Program-made: the position numbers and the translations under genes
The notes under the pieces: generated by a model
What the model was told of the DNA's origin: nothing
What the model saw: only the letters and a program-made list of their open reading frames with translations
Database searches by the model: none
In this document: in pieces, positions 2,950 through 10,014 of the stretch
How positions within the stretch are numbered: position 1 is the stretch's first letter
Layout of the letters: each line of letters begins with the position of its first letter
From: a virus
Lineage: Duplodnaviria; Heunggongvirae; Uroviricota; Caudoviricetes
Direction: 5' to 3' (one strand)
Virus record (IMG/VR): IMGVR_UViG_3300029107_000029
Span: 1 to 10,014 of that record
DNA length: 10,014 nucleotides

Positions 2950-5307
2950 ATGGCAGCAGTAAAAATCTCAGGTGTGCTGAAAGATGGTGCGGGAAAACCA
3001 ATACAGAACTGCACTATTCAACTGAAGGCAAAGCGTAACAGCACCACGGTACTGGTGAACACGGTGGCCTCTGAAAATCCGGATGAAGCCGGGCGTTACA
3101 GCATGGATGTTGAGTATGGCCAGTACAGCGTCATCCTGCTGGTTGAAGGTTTTCCGCCTTCACATGCCGGGACCATTACCGTCTATGAAGGCTCCAGACC
3201 AGGTACGCTGAATGATTTTCTCGGCGCCATGACGGAAGATGATGTCATGCCGGAGGCATTGCGTCGTTTTGAGGAAATGGTGGAAGAAGCGGCACGCAAC
3301 GCTGAAGCCGCCTCTCAGAGCGCAGCGGCGGCAAAGAAATCCGAAACTGCAGCGGCATCATCGAAGAACGCGGCGAAAACCTCAGAAACGAATGCAGCTA
3401 ACAGCGCACAGGCGGCAGCGGCCTCGCAGACTGCATCGGCAAATTCCGCGACAGCAGCTAAAAAATCAGAAACCAACGCGAAAAATAGCGAGACAGCAGC
3501 AAAGACGAGCGAAACCAACGCAAAGTCCAGCCAGACGGCAGCGAAAACCAGCGAAACGAATGCTAAAGCCAGTGAAACTGCGGCGAAAAATAGCCAGAAT
3601 GCAGCAGCCGAAAGCGAGAGCGCGGCAGCCGGTTCTGCGACTTCAGCAGCTGGATCAGCAACTGCTGCGGCTAACAGCCAGAAAGCAGCGAAGACGAGCG
3701 AAACTAACGCAAAGTCCAGCCAGACGGCAGCGAAGACCAGCGAAACGAATGCCAAAGCCAGCGAAACTGCGGCGAAAAACAGTCAGGATGCAGCAGCCCA
3801 AAGCGAGAGTGCCGCAGCTGGTTCTGCAACAGCGGCAGCTAATAGCCAAAAAGCTGCAAAAACCAGTGAAACTAACGCAAAGACGAGTGAAACAAAAGCA
3901 GCAGCCAGCGAGACAGAAGCAACGTCAGCCGCAACAAGAGCAGAGAATGCAGCCCGGATTGCAGAAGATGCCGCTGATCCTGCTTCTGTCCCTCCGCTTC
4001 CTGATATCTGGCTACCCTTGAATGATTCTCTGGAAGCGATAACAGGGTATGCGCCGGGCTATAAAACAATAACCATCGGCAGTGATGAAATAACAATGCC
4101 TGTTAATGGCATATGCCAATTTAGCCGGGCTTCATCAGCAACGTATATTGATAAGTCCGGGCATATTACCGTAGCAGGTAATAACGTTCCTCGTTTTGAA
4201 AAATATGGTTTGCTGATAGAGAATCAGCGAACAAACATGTTCGTAAATAGTTTTAATCCTGATGCCTGGAATAAAAGCGGTGGTATATCTGTAACATCAT
4301 CAACAGATGAATTTGAGTTTAAATATGGACGTTTCACAGTAGGAAGCGATATAGCAGGAACGACAACAGGGAGAAATATATGCACAGTTGCTGGTAATAA
4401 AGGCATAGATGTGACTGGCGATGATCAGTACAGTAAAGGTCCGTATGTTACCGCGTCGTTCAGGGTAAGAAGTGATCTCAATGTTCGCGCACGTATCCGT
4501 TTTGAACGGTATAACTCGGAAGGATACACTTTCCTTTGTGACGCCTATTTGTCATTACAGACTCATGAACTACAAATTACGGGTGGTAATGCCCAGCTAT
4601 TAACAGCAAACTTTGAAATCGACCCTGGTAGTGGATGGATATATTTTCAGGCAACACTGAAATGTCTGCCAGAATGGGGAATGGTTGGTACGCAGCTGCA
4701 AATTGCAGCCGACAGAGCTGTGGGGTCTTTTGCAACAGGTGACTGGATAGAAGTAACCACCCCGCAATTCGAGTATGGTGCTTGTGCAACTTCCTTTATC
4801 ATAACGACAACAGAGCCAGCGACTCGTGCATCAGATTTATGTAAATTTCCGCTGATGAAAAATATGTATACCATGCCTTTTACGTTCATGGTGGAAGTCC
4901 ATAAAAACTGGTTTATTTCTCATAATGCTGCACCGCGTGTCATTGATTCAGAAAATCACCAGTCCGGAGGCCCATTTATTATGGGGTTTGGTTCTTCTGG
5001 AACTATCAGTCAGGATGGTTATTCGTATTGCGATATAGGCGGGGCTAACCGGCGTGTATATGAGTCATGCGGAGTAAGAGATCTCGTTATGGGATTCAGG
5101 GTTAAGGCTGACGGCATGACATGTTCATTTGCAAATAAGAATATAAGCACTGAAACCAAAACAGTATGGAAATATATTCGTGAAGCAGCCGTGATTCGTA
5201 TCGGGGGGCAAACGACGACAGGATTACGACACCTTAATGGTCATATAAAAAACCTCCGTTTCTGGAACAGAGCATTGTCAGATACGCAGCTTAAGGAATA
5301 CGTATAA
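2950..5307 (+). CDS. stf: Side tail fibre protein (Stf-like), 785 aa: lambda-like N-terminus and Ala/Ser/Thr/Lys-rich repeat shaft, with a non-lambda C-terminal half ending in a LamG/concanavalin-A-like signature
   Basis: Preferred start is ATG 2950 with GGAG at 2941-2944 (5-nt spacer); the GTG at 2944 in the ORF track has no Shine-Dalgarno. N-terminus MAVKISGVLKDGAGKPIQNCTIQLKAKRNSTTV...GRYSMDVEYGQYSVIL...FPPSHAGTITVYE matches recalled lambda Stf. The C-terminal ~450 aa do not resemble lambda Stf; the extreme C-terminus GLRHLNGHIKNLRFWNRALSDTQLKEY fits the characteristic end of LamG_3/concanavalin-like lectin domains (...G.ID.vRiynRALSaeEI...). Confidence 0.85.
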   Translation: MAAVKISGVLKDGAGKPIQNCTIQLKAKRNSTTVLVNTVASENPDEAGRYSMDVEYGQYSVILLVEGFPPSHAGTITVYEGSRPGTLNDFLGAMTEDDVMPEALRRFEEMVEEAARNAEAASQSAAAAKKSETAAASSKNAAKTSETNAANSAQAAAASQTASANSATAAKKSETNAKNSETAAKTSETNAKSSQTAAKTSETNAKASETAAKNSQNAAAESESAAAGSATSAAGSATAAANSQKAAKTSETNAKSSQTAAKTSETNAKASETAAKNSQDAAAQSESAAAGSATAAANSQKAAKTSETNAKTSETKAAASETEATSAATRAENAARIAEDAADPASVPPLPDIWLPLNDSLEAITGYAPGYKTITIGSDEITMPVNGICQFSRASSATYIDKSGHITVAGNNVPRFEKYGLLIENQRTNMFVNSFNPDAWNKSGGISVTSSTDEFEFKYGRFTVGSDIAGTTTGRNICTVAGNKGIDVTGDDQYSKGPYVTASFRVRSDLNVRARIRFERYNSEGYTFLCDAYLSLQTHELQITGGNAQLLTANFEIDPGSGWIYFQATLKCLPEWGMVGTQLQIAADRAVGSFATGDWIEVTTPQFEYGACATSFIITTTEPATRASDLCKFPLMKNMYTMPFTFMVEVHKNWFISHNAAPRVIDSENHQSGGPFIMGFGSSGTISQDGYSYCDIGGANRRVYESCGVRDLVMGFRVKADGMTCSFANKNISTETKTVWKYIREAAVIRIGGQTTTGLRHLNGHIKNLRFWNRALSDTQLKEYV
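3499..3900 (+). repeat. In-frame tandem repeats inside stf (units of 189 bp and 168 bp, about 90% identical, plus a partial third unit), nested in a shorter SETNAK-type periodicity
   Basis: Direct sequence comparison: accaacgcaaagtccagccagacggcagcgaa at 3514 recurs as actaacgcaaagtccagccagacggcagcgaa at 3703 (offset 189 bp = 63 codons) and partially at 3871 (offset 168 bp = 56 codons). Encoded peptide AAKTSETNAKSSQTAAKTSETNAKASETAAKNSQ[N/D]AAA[E/Q]SESAAAGSAT... is repeated. Confidence 0.85.
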
Positions 5308-5576
5308 TGCGGGATATAACATTACGATTCGATAACAGAGAACAGTTTAACGCAATTGTATATGACAGTGGCCTGTTCAGTCTTGAAGAAGAAAATGGGG
5401 TTCTTGTTGATGTTATTGGCTGCATTATTGATTACGAGGAACCAGAAAACGAAAGATGTACAGGCATTGATCGCGGTGGTTTTTTCGTAAACATGAGGAT
5501 TGTTGATGGCAGTAAAAACATATCTTCTTTAATGCCTTTCATTACGACAGATCAGCATGTAAGGACATGGGCTTAA
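5307..5576 (+). CDS. Hypothetical acidic protein, 89 aa, translationally coupled to stf; function unknown (candidate cognate fibre chaperone by position only)
   Basis: Its ATG (5307-5309) overlaps the stf stop TAA (5305-5307) in a TAATG arrangement. No recognisable motif. ORF is intact and co-oriented within a tight operon. Confidence 0.55.
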   Translation: MRDITLRFDNREQFNAIVYDSGLFSLEEENGVLVDVIGCIIDYEEPENERCTGIDRGGFFVNMRIVDGSKNISSLMPFITTDQHVRTWA

Positions 5577-5588
5577 TGGAGTAAGACA

Positions 5589-6293
5589 ATGGTTACAAAA
5601 ACAGTAATTCCAGGAGACATCACCACGTTAAAGGGAGATGTCAGTAAAGCCAAGGAAGATATTTCCTCAATTAACGTAAAAGTATCAACGCTTCAGGCTG
5701 ATATGACCAGTGCAAAGCAGGATATCAGCTCCAGATACACAAAAACTGAAGTTGATAATAAGCTGAAAAACAAACTGGAAGTGAACGATCTGGAAAGTGG
5801 TCGTTATGGTGGAGATTTTTACCCGCTGACTGGCCGTGAAGCGTTTTATTTATGGGGGTTGGGCACGACTACTGCGGCGGCAAACCTTTATCTTAATCCT
5901 GACCCCGCAATTTCGTCTGTGCTGCGGTCAACATCGTCTATCCGCTATAAACATTCAGTAGAGACGATAGATTCGGAGCACGCCGATCTCATTTTCAAGA
6001 TGCGCCCTGTATGGTACAGGTCGCAATGCGAAAATGACAGGCGCGATTGGGGATTCTATGGATTGATTGCCGAGGAAGTAGGAGAAATTGCCCCTCAGTT
6101 TGTTCACTGGCGACCAGCTAACGAAGATGATGCACCGGAAACCATTTCCAGCAATGGCCTTGTTGCCGAAGGTGTAATGTACGAACGTCTGGTTGTTCCA
6201 CTGATTCACCATATCCAGAAGCTGACTGAAAGAGTTGATGAACTTGAGTCAGAATTAAAGTTGTTATTAACTTCCCGAAGCGATATTGGATAA
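5589..6293 (+). CDS. Tail-fibre-like protein, 234 aa: N-terminal coiled-coil-like repeats plus C-terminal peptidase S74 / intramolecular chaperone-like domain
   Basis: ATG 5589 with GGAG at 5578-5581. N-terminal repeats ITTLKGDVSKAKEDISSINVKVSTLQADMTSAKQDISS. C-terminal segment SSIRYK...LIFKMRPVWYR...GLIAEEVGEIAPQFV...GVMYERLVVPLIHHIQKLTERVDELESELKLL fits the recalled S74 'chaperone of endosialidase' pattern (S-x4-K, klrPvtYr, GfIAQEv..P..v, vdY..lv.lli.AiqeL). Confidence 0.7.
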   Translation: MVTKTVIPGDITTLKGDVSKAKEDISSINVKVSTLQADMTSAKQDISSRYTKTEVDNKLKNKLEVNDLESGRYGGDFYPLTGREAFYLWGLGTTTAAANLYLNPDPAISSVLRSTSSIRYKHSVETIDSEHADLIFKMRPVWYRSQCENDRRDWGFYGLIAEEVGEIAPQFVHWRPANEDDAPETISSNGLVAEGVMYERLVVPLIHHIQKLTERVDELESELKLLLTSRSDIG

Positions 6294-6303
6294 AGGAGGA
6301 GTA

Positions 6304-6597
6304 ATGGATATAACACCTTTCCTTCACGCGCTTTGTGCTGTGGCTGCGCAGGTACTGGTTGGTCTTTTTACCGGGAACTGGGCTTACGGAGCGATAGCCG
6401 GTTGTACGTTCTTCATTGCGCGTGAACACACCCAGGCAGAATATCGCTGGATTGAAATGTTCGGGCATGGCAAGCGAATGAATATGCCTTGGTGGGGCGG
6501 TTTTGATCCACGTGCATGGGATGTGGCAAGCCTGATGGATTTTGCTGTGCCGGTGGTGGCGTGTCTGCTGGTCTGGCTGTTGATTAATCGCGGGTGA
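6304..6597 (+). CDS. Small predicted inner-membrane protein, 98 aa, about three hydrophobic segments; function unknown
   Basis: ATG 6304 preceded by AGGAGG (6294-6299); the ORF track's TTG at 6286 overlaps the upstream stop and is less likely. Hydrophobic stretches FLHALCAVAAQVLVGLF, WAYGAIAGCTFFIA and LMDFAVPVVACLLVWLLI. No lipobox or signal-peptidase site recognised. Confidence 0.55.
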   Translation: MDITPFLHALCAVAAQVLVGLFTGNWAYGAIAGCTFFIAREHTQAEYRWIEMFGHGKRMNMPWWGGFDPRAWDVASLMDFAVPVVACLLVWLLINRG

Positions 6598-6606
6598 AAA
6601 AGGTGA

Positions 6607-6735
6607 GCTGTATATGCAACGGAGGGCGAAACCTCGTTGCTGGAAGCCTGGAAGAAGTATCGGGTGTTGCTGAACCGTGTTGATACATCAACTGCACCGG
6701 ATACTGAGTGGCCTCTCATTCCTGCAGCTAATTGA
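6607..6735 (+). pseudogene. tfa: 3' remnant of a tail fibre assembly gene (tfa-like), last ~42 codons, with no start codon
   Basis: Frame-1 translation from 6607 to the TGA at 6733-6735 gives [42 protein letters not shown], which matches my recollection of the conserved C-terminus of lambda-family Tfa (...[29 protein letters not shown]...). It is preceded by in-frame stops at 6595-6597 and 6604-6606 and has no in-frame ATG/GTG with a Shine-Dalgarno. Confidence 0.55.
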
Positions 6736-6753
6736 AAACTAGTTAATTATATT

Positions 6754-6788
6754 CCGCAGCAAATTATACTGGTAATATGCTGCGGTTT
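6754..6788. terminator. Hairpin between the convergent tail-fibre operon and diguanylate cyclase gene; possible weak terminator
   Basis: Inverted repeat ccgcagca (6754-6761) / tgctgcgg (6778-6785) with a 16-nt AT-rich loop, followed on the + strand by ttt. The loop is long and the T-run short, so confidence is low. Confidence 0.3.
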
Positions 6789-6829
6789 AATGATCAGTAA
6801 GTATAATATCGTCTGTTGCCACTAAATAG

Positions 6830-8173
6830 CTATGATAGCTCGCTATGTATGATTACCTTGTTTCTGCCAGTTCTTTTGGCTTCATATAGCGATTCATCTG
6901 CTTGAGCCAAGATTTCTGAAGGCATGAGTTTATTTGAAAGAGTGATGAACCCACCTATGCTGATAGTGACTCTTTCAACCCCATATTTAACAGTAAGATT
7001 TTGTGTTTTCACTTCAACATTCCTTCTTATTCTTTCGCTGATTGCTGAGATCTGAGAAAATGAAAGATCATTGAATACAATGGCGAATTCTTCCCCTCCA
7101 AGTCGGCCGAATAAATCTTTGTTCCTGATTGTCTTTGCAATAATCTTTGTTACTGTGCTTATTACTATATCTCCAGTGTGATGTCCATGCTGGTCATTTA
7201 TCTTCTTGAAGTGATCAATGTCGAGCATTAATACACAAATGGAATTATTATTGTTATTTTTTAATATTGTCTTGAAGGCATTTAAAAAACCACCTCTATT
7301 ATAAGTGTTAGTTAAAAAATCGTGTGATGCCAGATAATCTGAATATTTTAATTTCAAAAATATAAAATACATTAGAGTGCATATGATATATAGGCTGGAT
7401 GCTAGTTCAAACCCTTTGGCCCAATACCATATAGGATAACGTGAATCCATAAAATGCAATAATATTAAGTTATCACATGCTAGAGCAATGCTGATAAAGC
7501 TAATGCAAAACCATATTTTTGAATAATTTTTAATAAAAAAACATGAAGAAACAAGAAGTAATAGCCAGAAATAAATTATCGTCTTAATGTAGAATGTATT
7601 CCATGTCAATTGATGGCTGACGGAGGAATAGTATACTATATTAATAGAGTAGCTTTCATTCGCGCTACTTAATATTTTGGCTGTAAATGATATGAAAATA
7701 AGAATTAGTATGGCAAATAGTATTGTGAATGTATTTTTTCTATTTGCACAAGTGTAAATTTCTTTTGAATGGCTTGAAAAAATAGCAACACAGGAAATTA
7801 ACACAAAGCTTATTTGACGGAAAAAGTAAAATATTGCGACGTCATTTGCCTTCTGGATTATTAAGGATTCAGAAGATATTGGTGTTTGCACAATAATTAT
7901 TGTCTCTACAAAATAATAGAGATTGTTCAGGAATGCAATGGCTAGAATCAGCAGGCAAATTTGTTTTTGATGAGATGTATAGTATAAAAACATAAATATA
8001 CAAATCATAAGGTTTATAAAAAACAGGCCTACAATAAAGATAATATAGTTGGTTTGGGTTGTTTGTGTAAGGTATAGCCAATTTTTCTCATGTAACTGCA
8101 TGAGAAAAAATGAAACAAAGATGAATATAATGGAAAATATTTTTAAACTTACAGGTACTGTACGAGTAGTCAT
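6830..8173 (-). CDS. Membrane-anchored diguanylate cyclase, 447 aa: N-terminal ~8-TM sensor-like domain plus C-terminal GGDEF domain with GGEEF active site and RxxD I-site
   Basis: ATG at 8173 (- strand) with AGGTGG 4 nt upstream (complement of 8178-8183). C-terminal domain contains HDFLTNTYNRGGF, the I-site RNKD five residues upstream of RLGGEEF, and DESLYEAKRTGRNKV. N-terminal 270 aa has about eight hydrophobic segments. The gene is very AT-rich with Ile/Phe/Asn/Lys/Tyr-rich codon usage, unlike the flanking genes. Confidence 0.9.
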   Translation of the reverse strand: MTTRTVPVSLKIFSIIFIFVSFFLMQLHEKNWLYLTQTTQTNYIIFIVGLFFINLMICIFMFLYYTSHQKQICLLILAIAFLNNLYYFVETIIIVQTPISSESLIIQKANDVAIFYFFRQISFVLISCVAIFSSHSKEIYTCANRKNTFTILFAILILIFISFTAKILSSANESYSINIVYYSSVSHQLTWNTFYIKTIIYFWLLLLVSSCFFIKNYSKIWFCISFISIALACDNLILLHFMDSRYPIWYWAKGFELASSLYIICTLMYFIFLKLKYSDYLASHDFLTNTYNRGGFLNAFKTILKNNNNNSICVLMLDIDHFKKINDQHGHHTGDIVISTVTKIIAKTIRNKDLFGRLGGEEFAIVFNDLSFSQISAISERIRRNVEVKTQNLTVKYGVERVTISIGGFITLSNKLMPSEILAQADESLYEAKRTGRNKVIIHSELS

Positions 8174-8239
8174 GCTGCCACCTAAAAAAATGCATATTTA
8201 TTCATGTGTATCAATAAATATGTCTCAGGGTAACTTATT

Positions 8240-8285
8240 CTAAATCAGTATACCATTTGTTATAGATGCTGAAATTATCTTTTTC
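8240..8285 (-). promoter_or_regulatory. Candidate sigma70 promoter for the diguanylate cyclase gene
   Basis: On the - strand: TTTCAG, 16-nt spacer, TATACT (complement of 8247-8252), about 75 nt upstream of the start codon, in an AT-rich region. Pattern match only. Confidence 0.25.
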
Positions 8286-9173
8286 TGTAAAGATGACTTT
8301 TGAATGGTTTGCTGGTTATTAATATGCCTGCTAATTTAAGGTGTATATAGTGAATTTTGAGTGAAATTTTTAATGTGTTATTATTTGTGATGTATGTCAC
8401 AGAGCCATTTGAGGCGGTCAGTATTCATACTGATAATTAGTGTGAAATTATGCTCTGTGTATGGCATATGTAGGGGAAGAGCAGACTTCGATTGTACCTA
8501 TTTGCGGTGAATCCGATATCTTTTATTGCGTTGTTGGTCATGTCATGTTGAACTCGATTTAGATTTTTTAGCCGAACTAACAAGCCTGCAGACATCTGAC
8601 ATTTTTTGTTAGAGCGTACTATTTTGATGCGAAGTCATGTAACTTTGTTTCAGGCTGAAAAAGGGTTTAAATTGGGGGAAGTCCAGCTTGGCTCTGGCTC
8701 GATCTCACTCCTCCTTTACTTCTCCATTCAGACCAGGCATCGCAAATTCACTGCATGAAGATGAGCGATTTTTATATATTGTGAAGTAAGCGTTTTTTCC
8801 TAGAGCGGTTGGCCAGGGCAATACATCTTGGGTTTCCCTGATTCGTACCGCTTATGCTTCGGAGATAAGGGGATATGTGCTCTGTGAACCTAACGGGGAT
8901 GGTACAGCCAGCATCATCGATTTCAGCCCGGTAAAAGAGACGAGGAAAAATGCACAACAGGCACCACACGTTATGCATGGATTCGAATTGCTCATAATTC
9001 ACCAGCACAGCTTTAAATCGTAAAGAGAACCACGCTACGCTGTATGCGAGAATGTATTGTGGTTGGCTGGTGAAATTCCGTTAGTGGATTTACAGCCGGA
9101 ACTGATTCTCTGGGAAAGAAATCATGGGCCAACTCACAGGCCACAGAATGAGAATTCTTAGAATTTTTTCGGT

Positions 9174-9213
9174 GGCAAAAATGGGGCAAAACGCTGCAAA
9201 AGGGGCAAAAAAA
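9174..9213. repeat. Four phased GCAAAA A-tracts at helical periodicity (possible intrinsic bend or clustered protein-binding sites)
   Basis: GCAAAA begins at 9175, 9186, 9196 and 9205 (spacings 11, 10, 9 bp): ggcaaaaatggggcaaaacgctgcaaaaggggcaaaaaaag. Adjacent 8-bp palindrome AGAATTCT at 9151-9158. Confidence 0.5.
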
Positions 9214-9506
9214 GAGTGGATTATCGTAGCTTATTGTTGTCGCTGATGATATTTAACACATTGAAAAATAAGTAAAATACTTATGAGTCAGAGAGTTGTG
9301 ATTTTTGCCCTTACTTGTTCAGGTTGTATTGTTCTTTCTTACTAATTTCTTGATTTTGCAACATTTAATAGTAGCTCAATTCATTATATGGCATCAGAAG
9401 AGTATGCATCATGCCGGGATATCCGACAGCAGAAGTCTGATATAAAAACAGTGGCGTGTATGGTACGGATTAGAGGGGAAAATGTCAGCACATTTGCGAA
9501 ATGAAT

Positions 9507-9532
9507 CAAAAAGCCCGCAGCGACGTGCGGGC
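9507..9532 (-). terminator. Rho-independent terminator of the universal stress protein gene
   Basis: Read on the - strand: gcccgca-cgtcgc-tgcgggc followed by TTTTT (complement of 9508-9512), beginning 9 nt downstream of the stop codon. Confidence 0.65.
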
Positions 9533-9540
9533 GTTAGTTA

Positions 9541-10014
<474 letters not shown>

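What the first reader, a model, noticed from the sequence alone, without database searches (positions are those of the whole stretch)
8174..9540. ORF-poor 1.35-kb stretch between the cyclase gene and uspF, likely containing the prophage-chromosome junction
No ORF of 80 aa or more on either strand over about 1.35 kb. Composition shifts from very AT-rich (to about 8420) to chromosomal-like. In E. coli K-12 as I recall it, uspF lies immediately outside the Rac prophage right end next to the ttcC pseudogene, so this interval plausibly holds an attR junction, decayed gene remnants, and perhaps small RNAs or peptides. Two short ORFs without a Shine-Dalgarno are visible: a 20-aa hydrophobic peptide MSQRVVIFALTCSGCIVLSY at 9283-9345 and a 38-aa peptide MASEEYASCRDIRQQKSDIKTVACMVRIRGENVSTFAK at 9389-9505 that ends just before the uspF terminator hairpin.
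Basis: partly seen in the sequence, partly recalled or inferred. Interest (0 to 1): 0.4.

Follow-up and report, generated by a model that had tools for sequence, protein, structure and literature searches.

The report
Rac-type prophage right junction (attR)
The gene-poor stretch is the right-hand junction between a Rac-like prophage and the chromosome, an ordinary and well-known kind of site; one extra point is that the "chromosomal" DNA beside it carries a 22-codon relic of an older phage integrase gene that probably serves as a promoter.

Summary
There is no ORF of 80 aa or more in 8174-9540; the longest is 78 aa, which is what shuffled sequence gives.

The interval holds the attR of a Rac-type lambdoid prophage inserted in the 5' end of ttcA, in a non-coli Escherichia.

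Layout of the interval:
- 8174-8687: AT-rich orphan DNA upstream of a prophage-borne dgcX-like diguanylate cyclase gene.
- 8687-8995(-): a decayed YkgJ-family (CxxCxxCC) cargo gene.
- 8996-9314: the phage P' arm. Positions 9174-9314 match E. coli K-12 Rac at 141 of 141 aligned bases and carry GGGGCAAA arm repeats.
- 9315-9340: the 26-bp att core, inside the ttcC' remnant at 9311-9364(-).
- 9365-9540: chromosomal spacer and the uspF terminator.

The GC shift near 8420 is real but is not the junction. Both small ORFs run antisense to present or former coding sequence and show no coding signature.

One new point: the conserved chromosomal spacer at 9430-9495(-) is a fossil of a Rac-type integrase 3' end (KCADIFPSNPYHTRH). 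It carries the promoter-like CTGACA-17-TACCAT aimed at ttcA/ttcC'. Enterobacteriaceae show a graded series of such integrase relics upstream of ttcA.

Overall this is an ordinary junction of a known kind.

The parts
6714..8687 (-). Cargo ('moron') module, about 2 kb and low in GC, carrying the dgcX-like gene. It replaces 116 bp of the tfa-ykgJ junction seen in E. coli RM10740.
   Evidence: window 6615-6713 matches L001 5768-5866 (tfa 3' end), and window 8688 onward matches L001 5983 onward. GC is 0.27-0.37.
6830..8173 (-). MASE4-GGDEF diguanylate cyclase gene, 447 aa (context for the finding). It is 50% identical to DgcX of E. coli 042.
   Evidence: Pfam matches to MASE4 (1.2e-34) and GGDEF (6.2e-42). 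BLASTP gives 224/446 identical residues, E 1e-151. The identical protein sits in the same context on at least 24 contigs.
8174..8686 (-). Orphan AT-rich non-coding DNA upstream of the cyclase gene: its 5' UTR and presumed promoter region. A Shine-Dalgarno AGGTGG lies at 8178-8183 and a candidate extended -10 (TGgTATACT) at 8247-8255.
   Evidence: Sequence read. No homologue in complete E. coli genomes, phages or plasmids or in PHROGs. Only one indel among 7 carrier sequences. The promoter is inferred, not shown.
8687..8995 (-). Pseudogene of a YkgJ-family (CxxCxxCC, PF03692) prophage cargo gene.
   Evidence: tblastn with the intact 109-aa RM10740 protein gives E 3e-21 with in-frame stops. The DNA alignment shows a 1-bp deletion, a 1-bp insertion, a further 1-bp deletion and loss of the 3' end. 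The reading frame switches 0 to 2 to 0, a Cys codon is replaced by TGA, and CC is replaced by YF. The intact homologue matches PF03692 at 2.8e-11.
8996..9173 (.). ykgJ upstream region and distal phage arm. It is homologous to the RM10740 prophage but not to K-12 Rac.
   Evidence: about 83% identity to L001; 33-79% identity to K-12.
9174..9314 (.). P' arm of attR, with roughly 10-bp periodic GGGGCAAA(A) repeats at 9174-9211 that are probably integrase arm-type sites.
   Evidence: 141 of 141 aligned bases are identical to K-12 Rac, against 92% in uspF. TRF finds period 10 with 3.8 copies. GGGGCAAA occurs at 9183 and 9202; 0.36 matches are expected by chance in the whole window. Repeat copy number varies between carriers. 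IntR has an Arm-DNA-bind_2 domain. The same motif is present in the K-12 attL P arm.
9315..9340 (.). att core TTGTTCAGGTTGTATTGTTCTTTCTT: the prophage-chromosome junction.
   Evidence: The 26 nt are identical in K-12 attL, K-12 attR and the window. Homology to unoccupied Citrobacter ttcA-uspF sites begins exactly at 9315.
9311..9364 (-). ttcC': the orphaned original 5' end of ttcA (MLQNQEISKKEQYNLNK, then stop).
   Evidence: It aligns with the K-12 ttcC pseudogene. The translation was read.
9343..9355 (+). IHF consensus TAAnnnnTTGATW inside ttcC'.
   Evidence: This is the only match in the window. The consensus was described for Rac attL and attR in PMC8407004.
9430..9495 (-). Fossil of a Rac-type integrase 3' end (KCADIFPSNPYHTRHCFYIRLL, matching IntR 345-366, the HxxR box II region). 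It is a conserved island in the ttcA-uspF spacer.
   Evidence: tblastn gives 13/22 identities, E 4e-5, and the DNA match is 34/44. None of 2000 shuffles reaches the score. Other Enterobacteriaceae show a graded series of integrase remnants. Identity to K-12 is 95.5% here against 80% in the adjacent spacer.
9460..9488 (-). Promoter-like CTGACA-17-TACCAT aimed at ttcC' (and at ttcA in unoccupied sites).
   Evidence: The hexamers and the 17-nt spacing are invariant in Escherichia and Citrobacter empty sites. The same sequence is listed as the RpoD-holoenzyme 'constitutive promoter' of the ynaE-uspF spacer in K-12 (PMC3946193).
9513..9532 (-). uspF intrinsic terminator hairpin.
   Evidence: 7-bp stem with 6 GC pairs, followed by a T-run on the minus strand.
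9541..9975 (-). uspF (context for the finding).
9283..9345 (+). It is antisense to ttcC' and the P' arm and is judged not to be a gene.
   Evidence: The start codon is absent in RM10740 and O121 (GTT there). In unoccupied sites the ORF does not exist, because ttcA codons lie there. There is no Shine-Dalgarno sequence.
9388..9504 (+). It is antisense to the integrase fossil and the promoter and is judged unlikely to be a gene.
   Evidence: It is open in most Escherichia and Citrobacter sequences but frameshifted in K-12, S. flexneri and C. murliniae. Variable columns by codon position are 9/5/10. Window against C. braakii shows 4 synonymous and 9 non-synonymous codon changes. There is no Shine-Dalgarno sequence.

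Best explanation
The interval is the right end of a Rac-type lambdoid prophage integrated in the 5' end of ttcA, plus the short chromosomal spacer before uspF. It has few ORFs because it is built from four kinds of non-coding or dead DNA.

1. About 0.5 kb of AT-rich regulatory DNA lies upstream of a horizontally acquired dgcX-like cyclase gene. That gene was inserted between the tail-fibre assembly gene and the next cargo gene.
2. The next cargo gene, a YkgJ-family Cys-cluster gene, has lost its 3' end to that insertion and has since decayed by frameshifts and stop codons.
3. The attR recombination site follows: a P' arm with periodic GGGGCAAA integrase arm sites, an IHF consensus, and a 26-bp core inside the 17-codon ttcC' remnant of ttcA.
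4. The old ttcA upstream region and the uspF terminator come last.

Inferred, not shown: the old ttcA upstream region is itself a relic of an earlier Rac-like prophage. A 22-codon piece of the integrase gene has been kept because it supplies the sigma-70 promoter CTGACA-17-TACCAT for ttcA. In this lysogen that promoter is orphaned and points into ttcC' and the prophage arm.
For: Junction:
- K-12 Rac right end, ttcC and uspF align to window 9146-10014.
- The 26-nt core is shared by attL and attR.
- Identity to K-12 is 100% in the P' arm, against 92% in uspF and 80% in the spacer.
- Unoccupied Citrobacter sites align from exactly 9315.
- A reconstructed attB is intact in 2489 of 5426 E. coli genomes and split in the rest.
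- Liu et al. 2015 (PMC4632033) describe ttcA/ttcC' as the Rac attachment sites.

Prophage side: J, lom, stf and tail-fibre genes, and the same layout in 8 related contigs.

Pseudogene.

Cargo module: boundaries; DgcX relationship; dgcX 'hitchhiking' on lambdoid prophages, including one beside uspF-ompN in strain SE11, from PMC4287979.

Arm sites and IHF.

Integrase fossil and promoter.
Against: - attL, int and xis of this prophage lie outside the window, and the source genome was not recovered. The core is therefore defined by comparison with K-12 and other genomes, not with this lysogen's own attL.
- No transcript data were available. The cyclase promoter, the activity of CTGACA-17-TACCAT in this organism and any read-through are inferences.
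- The genomic SELEX evidence (PMC3946193) resolves RNA polymerase binding only to the spacer; the hexamers were then picked in silico.
- The count of promoter-like sites in the interval is no higher than in shuffles.
Confidence: 0.9

Rival explanations
1. The 38-aa ORF (9388-9504, + strand) encodes a conserved small protein in the ttcA-uspF spacer.
For: The frame is open with similar sequence in the window, E. coli RM10740 and O121, E. ruysiae and four Citrobacter species.
Against: - The frame is broken in K-12, S. flexneri and C. murliniae. The Citrobacter versions start with GTG and have variable C-terminal extensions.
- Substitutions show no third-position bias (9/5/10), and non-synonymous changes outnumber synonymous ones 9 to 4.
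- There is no Shine-Dalgarno sequence.
- Conservation is explained by the integrase fossil and promoter on the other strand.
- No Pfam or PHROG match.
Confidence: 0.05
2. The interval hides a small regulatory RNA or a type I toxin-antitoxin pair. Candidates are the hydrophobic 20-aa ORF or the 38-aa ORF MSQSHLRRSVFILIISVKLCSVYGICRGR... at 8394-8510.
For: Prophage ends often carry such loci. Two short hydrophobic ORFs exist. The mildest fold z-scores reach about -3 at 8334-8493(-).
Against: - No Rfam family matches at the gathering threshold, and only two chance-level hits appear at E>1.
- The re-folded region gives z -2.5 with only small hairpins.
- The only terminator-like hairpin in the interval is that of uspF.
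- The 20-aa ORF is created by the junction and lacks a start codon in other Rac-like arms.
- Hydrophobic short ORFs are expected by chance in 28% GC DNA.
Confidence: 0.05
3. The whole interval is conserved chromosomal intergenic DNA with no junction.
For: Positions 9365-9540 are indeed conserved chromosomal spacer.
Against: - Positions 8174-8720 are absent from all 5426 complete E. coli genomes.
- Positions 8688-9314 occur only next to prophage tail genes.
- Unoccupied sites join ttcA directly at 9315.
Confidence: 0.01

Closest known systems
[quoted passage not shown]
   Same: Same integration gene (5' end of ttcA), same 26-bp core, same 17-codon ttcC' remnant and same neighbour uspF. The P' arm at 9174-9314 is identical to K-12 Rac at all 141 aligned bases, including the GGGGCAAA repeats (PMC4632033).
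   Different: - The host is a non-coli Escherichia, about 90% identical to E. coli.
- The cargo inside the arm differs: a dgcX-like gene and a dead ykgJ-family gene here, against pinR, ynaE and ynaM in K-12.
- The number of arm repeats differs.
- ttcC' begins ML here and MS in K-12.
dgcX-carrying lambdoid prophages of E. coli (O104:H4, 55989, 042 at lambda attB; SE11 beside uspF-ompN)
   Same: A MASE4-GGDEF gene sits convergent to a tail-fibre-assembly remnant at the extreme right end of a lambdoid prophage, followed by a long ORF-free upstream region and then the att site.
   Different: The protein is only 50% identical to DgcX. The upstream non-coding DNA shows no similarity. The site is the ttcA att rather than lambda attB, although SE11 is reported beside uspF-ompN.
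Prophage of E. coli RM10740 at ttcA/uspF with an intact YkgJ-family gene
   Same: The right arm from the ykgJ stop to uspF is collinear with window 8688-10014 at about 83% identity.
   Different: There ykgJ is intact (109 aa, PF03692) and abuts tfa. Here a 2-kb cyclase module is inserted and ykgJ is dead.

Membership tests
Rac-type attR at ttcA | A duplicated 5' fragment of ttcA (ttcC') lies on the uspF side of the prophage. | tested here: met
   9311-9364(-) translates to MLQNQEISKKEQYNLNK then stop, and aligns with K-12 ttcC.
Rac-type attR at ttcA | The core sequence is shared with attL and attB. | tested here: met
   The 26 nt at 9315-9340 are identical to K-12 attL and attR and to 32 ttcA loci. 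The attL of this same genome was not available.
Rac-type attR at ttcA | A phage-derived arm with integrase arm-type repeats lies on one side and chromosomal DNA on the other, with a break in divergence at the core. | tested here: met
   Identity to K-12 is 100% left of the core, against 80-92% to the right. Repeats are shown.
Rac-type attR at ttcA | A cognate Rac-type integrase and excisionase sit at the other prophage end, and the prophage can excise. | not testable with these tools
   attL lies outside the 10-kb window and outside the 10-kb flanks of the related loci.
YkgJ / CxxCxxCC family (PF03692) | An intact ORF with the conserved Cys clusters. | tested here: not met
   At least two frameshifts, an in-frame TGA, loss of Cys codons and a truncated 3' end. 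Homology to an intact member is clear (E 3e-21). It is therefore a pseudogene of the family.
DgcX (prophage-borne diguanylate cyclase) | MASE4 sensor plus GGDEF domain, encoded next to lambdoid tail-fibre genes. | tested here: met
DgcX (prophage-borne diguanylate cyclase) | Orthologue-level sequence identity to DgcX. | tested here: not met
   50% amino-acid and about 66% nucleotide identity. It is a distinct DgcX-like lineage.
Sigma-70 promoter (the ttcA/ttcC' promoter) | -35 and -10 hexamers at 17-nt spacing, conserved across species and bound by RNA polymerase. | tested here: inconclusive
   The hexamers match 9/12. They are invariant across Escherichia and Citrobacter while the spacer between them diverges. 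RpoD holoenzyme binds the K-12 spacer and the same hexamers were named there (PMC3946193). No transcription start site data could be obtained.
Tyrosine recombinase gene | An intact catalytic domain. | tested here: not met
   Only about 22 codons around box II (NPYHTRH) remain. It is a fossil, not a gene.
Small protein gene (38-aa ORF) | A ribosome-binding site, frame conservation and a codon-position substitution bias. | tested here: not met

The most novel reading that the evidence does not exclude
The 'empty' ttcA attachment site of Escherichia, Citrobacter and relatives is itself the scar of an ancient Rac-like prophage. A 22-codon piece of the integrase gene, around the catalytic HxxR box, has been kept and tuned as the ttcA promoter: the -35 element changed from CTGGTA to CTGACA while the 17-nt spacing and the TACCAT -10 stayed fixed. 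Living Rac-like phages carry the proto-promoter inside int, so ttcA stays expressed after integration. Each new integration orphans the previous copy, which is what is seen at 9430-9495 in this window.
Probability: 0.5. Interest if true: 0.5.

Novelty: new member of a known kind. Interest (0 to 1): 0.28.

Why it matters
As a junction, this mainly tidies annotation. It fixes the prophage boundary at 9315-9340, flags a pseudogene, and removes two spurious small ORFs.

It also documents a second, divergent DgcX-like c-di-GMP cyclase riding at the end of a Rac-type prophage in non-coli Escherichia and in some E. coli. This bears on prophage-driven changes in biofilm behaviour.

The integrase fossil would give a concrete, testable example of a host promoter built from a phage recombinase gene. 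It would also show repeated integrate-and-decay cycles shaping a hot-spot att site.

Tried and rejected
- Rfam at the gathering threshold on the whole window, and at E up to 5 on 8100-9600, found nothing credible. No tRNA or tmRNA was found.
- Segment 8174-8720 has no homologue in complete E. coli genomes, phages, plasmids or viral contigs and no similarity to the dgcX upstream region of E. coli 042.
- Stop-to-stop translations of the interval have no PHROG match, and the longer ORFs of the interval that were tested have no Pfam match.
- Flanking repeats that might mark a transposon around the cyclase module: only short, chance-level matches.
- A sliding-window fold screen gave z of about -3 at best. 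Re-folding gave z -2.5 with trivial hairpins.
- Source genome: the att-core scan of one genome per species did not include it. The closest match was E. ruysiae at 95%. An identical 8-kb stretch exists in a human gut metagenome contig (L043).
- Experimental transcription start sites for the K-12 homologue could not be obtained: one paper is not held, one supplement is truncated and one has no supplement.
- The GC shift near 8420 as the junction: rejected.
Full report
**1. The observation**

ORF listing shows nothing of 80 aa or more inside 8174-9540. The longest ORF is 78 aa at 8772-9008(-). Dinucleotide shuffles of the interval give a mean longest ORF of 80.5 +/- 20 aa. The stretch therefore behaves like non-coding sequence. 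It is unusual only against normal bacterial coding density.

6830-8173(-) is a MASE4+GGDEF diguanylate cyclase and 9541-9975(-) is a Usp-family protein.

GC rises from 0.28 to 0.41-0.47 after about 8400, then dips to 0.34 around 9150-9450.

The 20-aa ORF is at 9283-9345 as stated.

**2. Context**

The left 6.3 kb of the window is the tail end of a lambdoid prophage. It carries J, lom, a side tail fibre and a tail-fibre protein with an S74 chaperone domain. A 99-bp relic of a tail-fibre assembly gene lies at 6615-6713.

The host is not E. coli. Chromosomal flanks taken from an identical metagenome contig are about 90% identical to E. coli over 6.6 kb. The uspF region is 92% identical to K-12 and 95-96% identical to E. 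ruysiae.

The identical cyclase protein occurs in the same layout on at least 24 contigs. These include human gut metagenomes and one E. coli draft genome.

**3. The junction**

In K-12 the order is Rac right end, ttcC pseudogene, uspF. Window 9146-10014 aligns to that stretch.

K-12 attL (the ttcA 5' end) and attR share an exact 26-nt core, TTGTTCAGGTTGTATTGTTCTTTCTT. In the window it lies at 9315-9340. It sits inside a 17-codon ORF on the minus strand at 9311-9364, MLQNQEISKKEQYNLNK then stop. This is the ttcC' remnant of the original ttcA 5' end.

Three independent lines place the boundary at the core:
- Left of the core, 9174-9314 matches K-12 Rac at 141 of 141 aligned bases. To the right, the spacer is 80% identical and uspF 92%.
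- Unoccupied ttcA-uspF sites of several Citrobacter species align with the window from exactly 9315 onward.
- An attB rebuilt from the K-12 attL-left and attR-right halves is intact in 2489 of 5426 complete E. coli genomes and split in the rest.

Liu et al. 2015 (PMC4632033) described ttcA/ttcC' as the Rac attachment sites. They reported imperfect att repeats that change four N-terminal TtcA residues, and XisR binding to an attR fragment.

The phage arm carries about 10-bp periodic GGCAAAA repeats at 9174-9211. Exact GGGGCAAA occurs at 9183 and 9202. Repeat copy number varies between carriers and against K-12. The same motif sits in the K-12 attL P arm, and IntR has an arm-DNA-binding domain. 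I therefore read the repeats as integrase arm-type sites; this is an inference.

The only match in the window to the IHF consensus used for the Rac att sites (PMC8407004) is at 9343-9355, inside ttcC'.

**4. The prophage part of the interval, 8174-9314**

From 8688 rightward the window is collinear, at about 83% identity, with a prophage of E. coli RM10740. That prophage has an intact 109-aa YkgJ-family (PF03692, CxxCxxCC) gene between tfa and attR.

The window copy at 8687-8995(-) is dead:
- It has a 1-bp deletion in a T-run after codon 20, a compensating 1-bp insertion about 125 nt later, and a further 1-bp deletion.
- A TGA replaces a Cys codon, paired Cys residues are replaced by Tyr-Phe, and the 3' end is missing.
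- The 78-aa 'longest ORF' of the interval is simply one shifted frame of this pseudogene.

The missing 3' end coincides with the right edge of a roughly 2-kb, 27-37% GC module at 6714-8687. That module replaces 116 bp of the RM10740 arrangement and carries the cyclase gene.

The cyclase is 50% identical to DgcX of E. coli 042. DgcX likewise sits convergent to a tfa relic at the end of a lambdoid prophage. Richter et al. 2014 (PMC4287979) reported that dgcX 'hitchhikes' on lambdoid prophages, including one beside uspF-ompN in strain SE11.

The 513 bp between the cyclase start and the pseudogene (8174-8686) has no detectable relative in complete E. coli genomes, phages, plasmids or viral contigs. 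It has no protein-family signal, and it is almost invariant among carriers. It contains a good Shine-Dalgarno sequence (AGGTGG, 8178-8183) and a candidate extended -10 (TGgTATACT, 8247-8255). I take it to be the cyclase gene's 5' UTR and promoter region; this is an inference.

**5. The chromosomal part, 9365-9540, and the integrase fossil**

Within this spacer, 9430-9495 is a conserved island. It is 95.5% identical to K-12, against 80% for the adjacent 9365-9429.

It contains the only minus-strand promoter-like site in the interval, CTGACA-17-TACCAT at 9488 to 9460, aimed at ttcC'.

The same 34-nt motif recurs 267 nt from the core inside the 3' end of intR on the attL side of K-12 and many other genomes.

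Translated on the minus strand, the window sequence reads KCADIFPSNPYHTRHCFYIRLL. IntR residues 345-366 read KRAGIRRRNPYHTRHTFACWLL. That is 13 of 22 identities with E 4e-5, and none of 2000 shuffles reaches the score. This region is the HxxR 'box II' part of the tyrosine-recombinase catalytic domain.

Across the 32 ttcA loci fetched with the core, there is a graded series upstream of an intact ttcA:
- full-length int;
- C-terminal fragments starting at residues 199, 265, 295 or about 320;
- short pieces covering residues 327-380, 340-401, 337-365 and 338-363;
- the 22-codon relic of the 'empty' Escherichia and Citrobacter sites.

All of these retain the NPYHTRH segment.

In live int genes the promoter-like hexamers read CTGGTA-17-TACCAT. 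In the relics of Escherichia and Citrobacter, and in a younger relic in Citrobacter sp. NCU1, the -35 reads CTGACA; in Lelliottia it reads CTGACT. These are closer to the TTGACA consensus. The 17-nt spacer between the hexamers has diverged in sequence but not in length, and TACCAT is invariant.

Shimada et al. 2014 (PMC3946193) list exactly CTGACA-17-TACCAT as the leftward 'constitutive' promoter of the RpoD-holoenzyme binding site in the K-12 ynaE-uspF spacer, which is also an H-NS site. That evidence comes from genomic SELEX at spacer resolution, with the hexamers chosen in silico.

My reading rests on inference at the step of promoter function. The region upstream of ttcA in unoccupied sites is the scar of an earlier Rac-like prophage, and the retained integrase piece serves as the ttcA promoter. 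In the present lysogen that promoter is orphaned. No intrinsic terminator is predicted on the minus strand between it and the cyclase gene, so some read-through into the arm is possible but untested. I found no mention of this fossil in the Rac papers I read.

**6. The small ORFs**

The 20-aa ORF (9283-9345, + strand) lies partly on the P' arm and partly antisense to ttcC'. Its ATG is absent in other Rac-like arms, where the codon is GTT. The ORF does not exist in unoccupied sites, and it has no Shine-Dalgarno sequence.

The 38-aa ORF (9388-9504, + strand) is open in most Escherichia and Citrobacter sequences. It is frameshifted in K-12, S. flexneri and C. murliniae, and in Citrobacter it has a GTG start and variable ends. 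Variable columns fall 9/5/10 by codon position, and non-synonymous changes outnumber synonymous ones 9 to 4. It is antisense to the integrase fossil and the promoter, which explains its conservation.

Neither ORF looks like a gene.

**7. RNA elements**

No Rfam family reaches threshold and no tRNA is present. Fold z-scores are unremarkable. The only terminator-like hairpin in the interval is that of uspF at 9513-9532.

**8. Verdict**

The main interpretation, that the interval contains attR and decayed remnants next to uspF, is supported. Corrections concern the exact position of the junction, the identity of the remnants and the small ORFs.

The feature is a new instance of a well-known kind of site. 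The integrase fossil and its promoter are a modest, testable addition.

Noticed in passing
window 9430-9495 (-); also L004 3167, L007, L010, L011, L026, L034 and others: A 22-codon relic of a Rac-type integrase (NPYHTRH box) lies in the 'chromosomal' ttcA-uspF spacer and carries CTGACA-17-TACCAT. Enterobacteriaceae show a graded series of integrase 3' remnants upstream of ttcA. The -35 element shifts from CTGGTA in live int genes to CTGACA or CTGACT in the relics.
   Followed up: yes
window 6830-8173 (-): A prophage-borne MASE4-GGDEF cyclase, only 50% identical to the published DgcX. It is not found in the 5426 complete E. coli genomes searched (best DNA match about 66%), but the identical protein occurs on at least 24 contigs, including human gut metagenomes and one E. 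coli draft genome.
   Followed up: partly
L039 6475-8806 (E. coli draft genome); L046: In one E. coli carrier the same prophage arm ends at window position 9357. It is followed by 2.3 kb of older prophage debris before uspF: an integrase 3' fragment, a DUF1627 fragment and a frameshifted ABC-permease gene. This debris is found in about 1044 complete E. coli genomes. It looks like tandem, successive occupation of the ttcA site.
   Followed up: partly
window 5307-6713: The tail-fibre end looks mosaic. An 89-aa ORF, a 234-aa protein with an S74 intramolecular-chaperone domain and a 97-103-aa ORF precede a 99-bp relic of a tfaR-like gene. This suggests replacement of the tail-fibre tip and assembly module.
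   Followed up: no
L010 (Mangrovibacter plantisponsor) 67-128 and 4667-4707: Two att-core-like sites about 4.6 kb apart, each followed by an integrase-box motif. This may be a very small remnant element at ttcA.
   Followed up: no
L011 and L024 (labelled Enterobacter hormaechei): The ttcA protein is 99.7% identical to E. coli K-12 TtcA. That is unexpectedly high for Enterobacter, so the records may be mislabelled or the locus transferred.
   Followed up: no
window 3300-3900: There is a strong AT skew (up to +0.67) within the side tail-fibre gene, and internal roughly 165-230-bp repeats are seen in BLAST self-hits against related loci (3487-3714 and 3673-3840). This is probably a repetitive tail-fibre shaft.
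   Followed up: no
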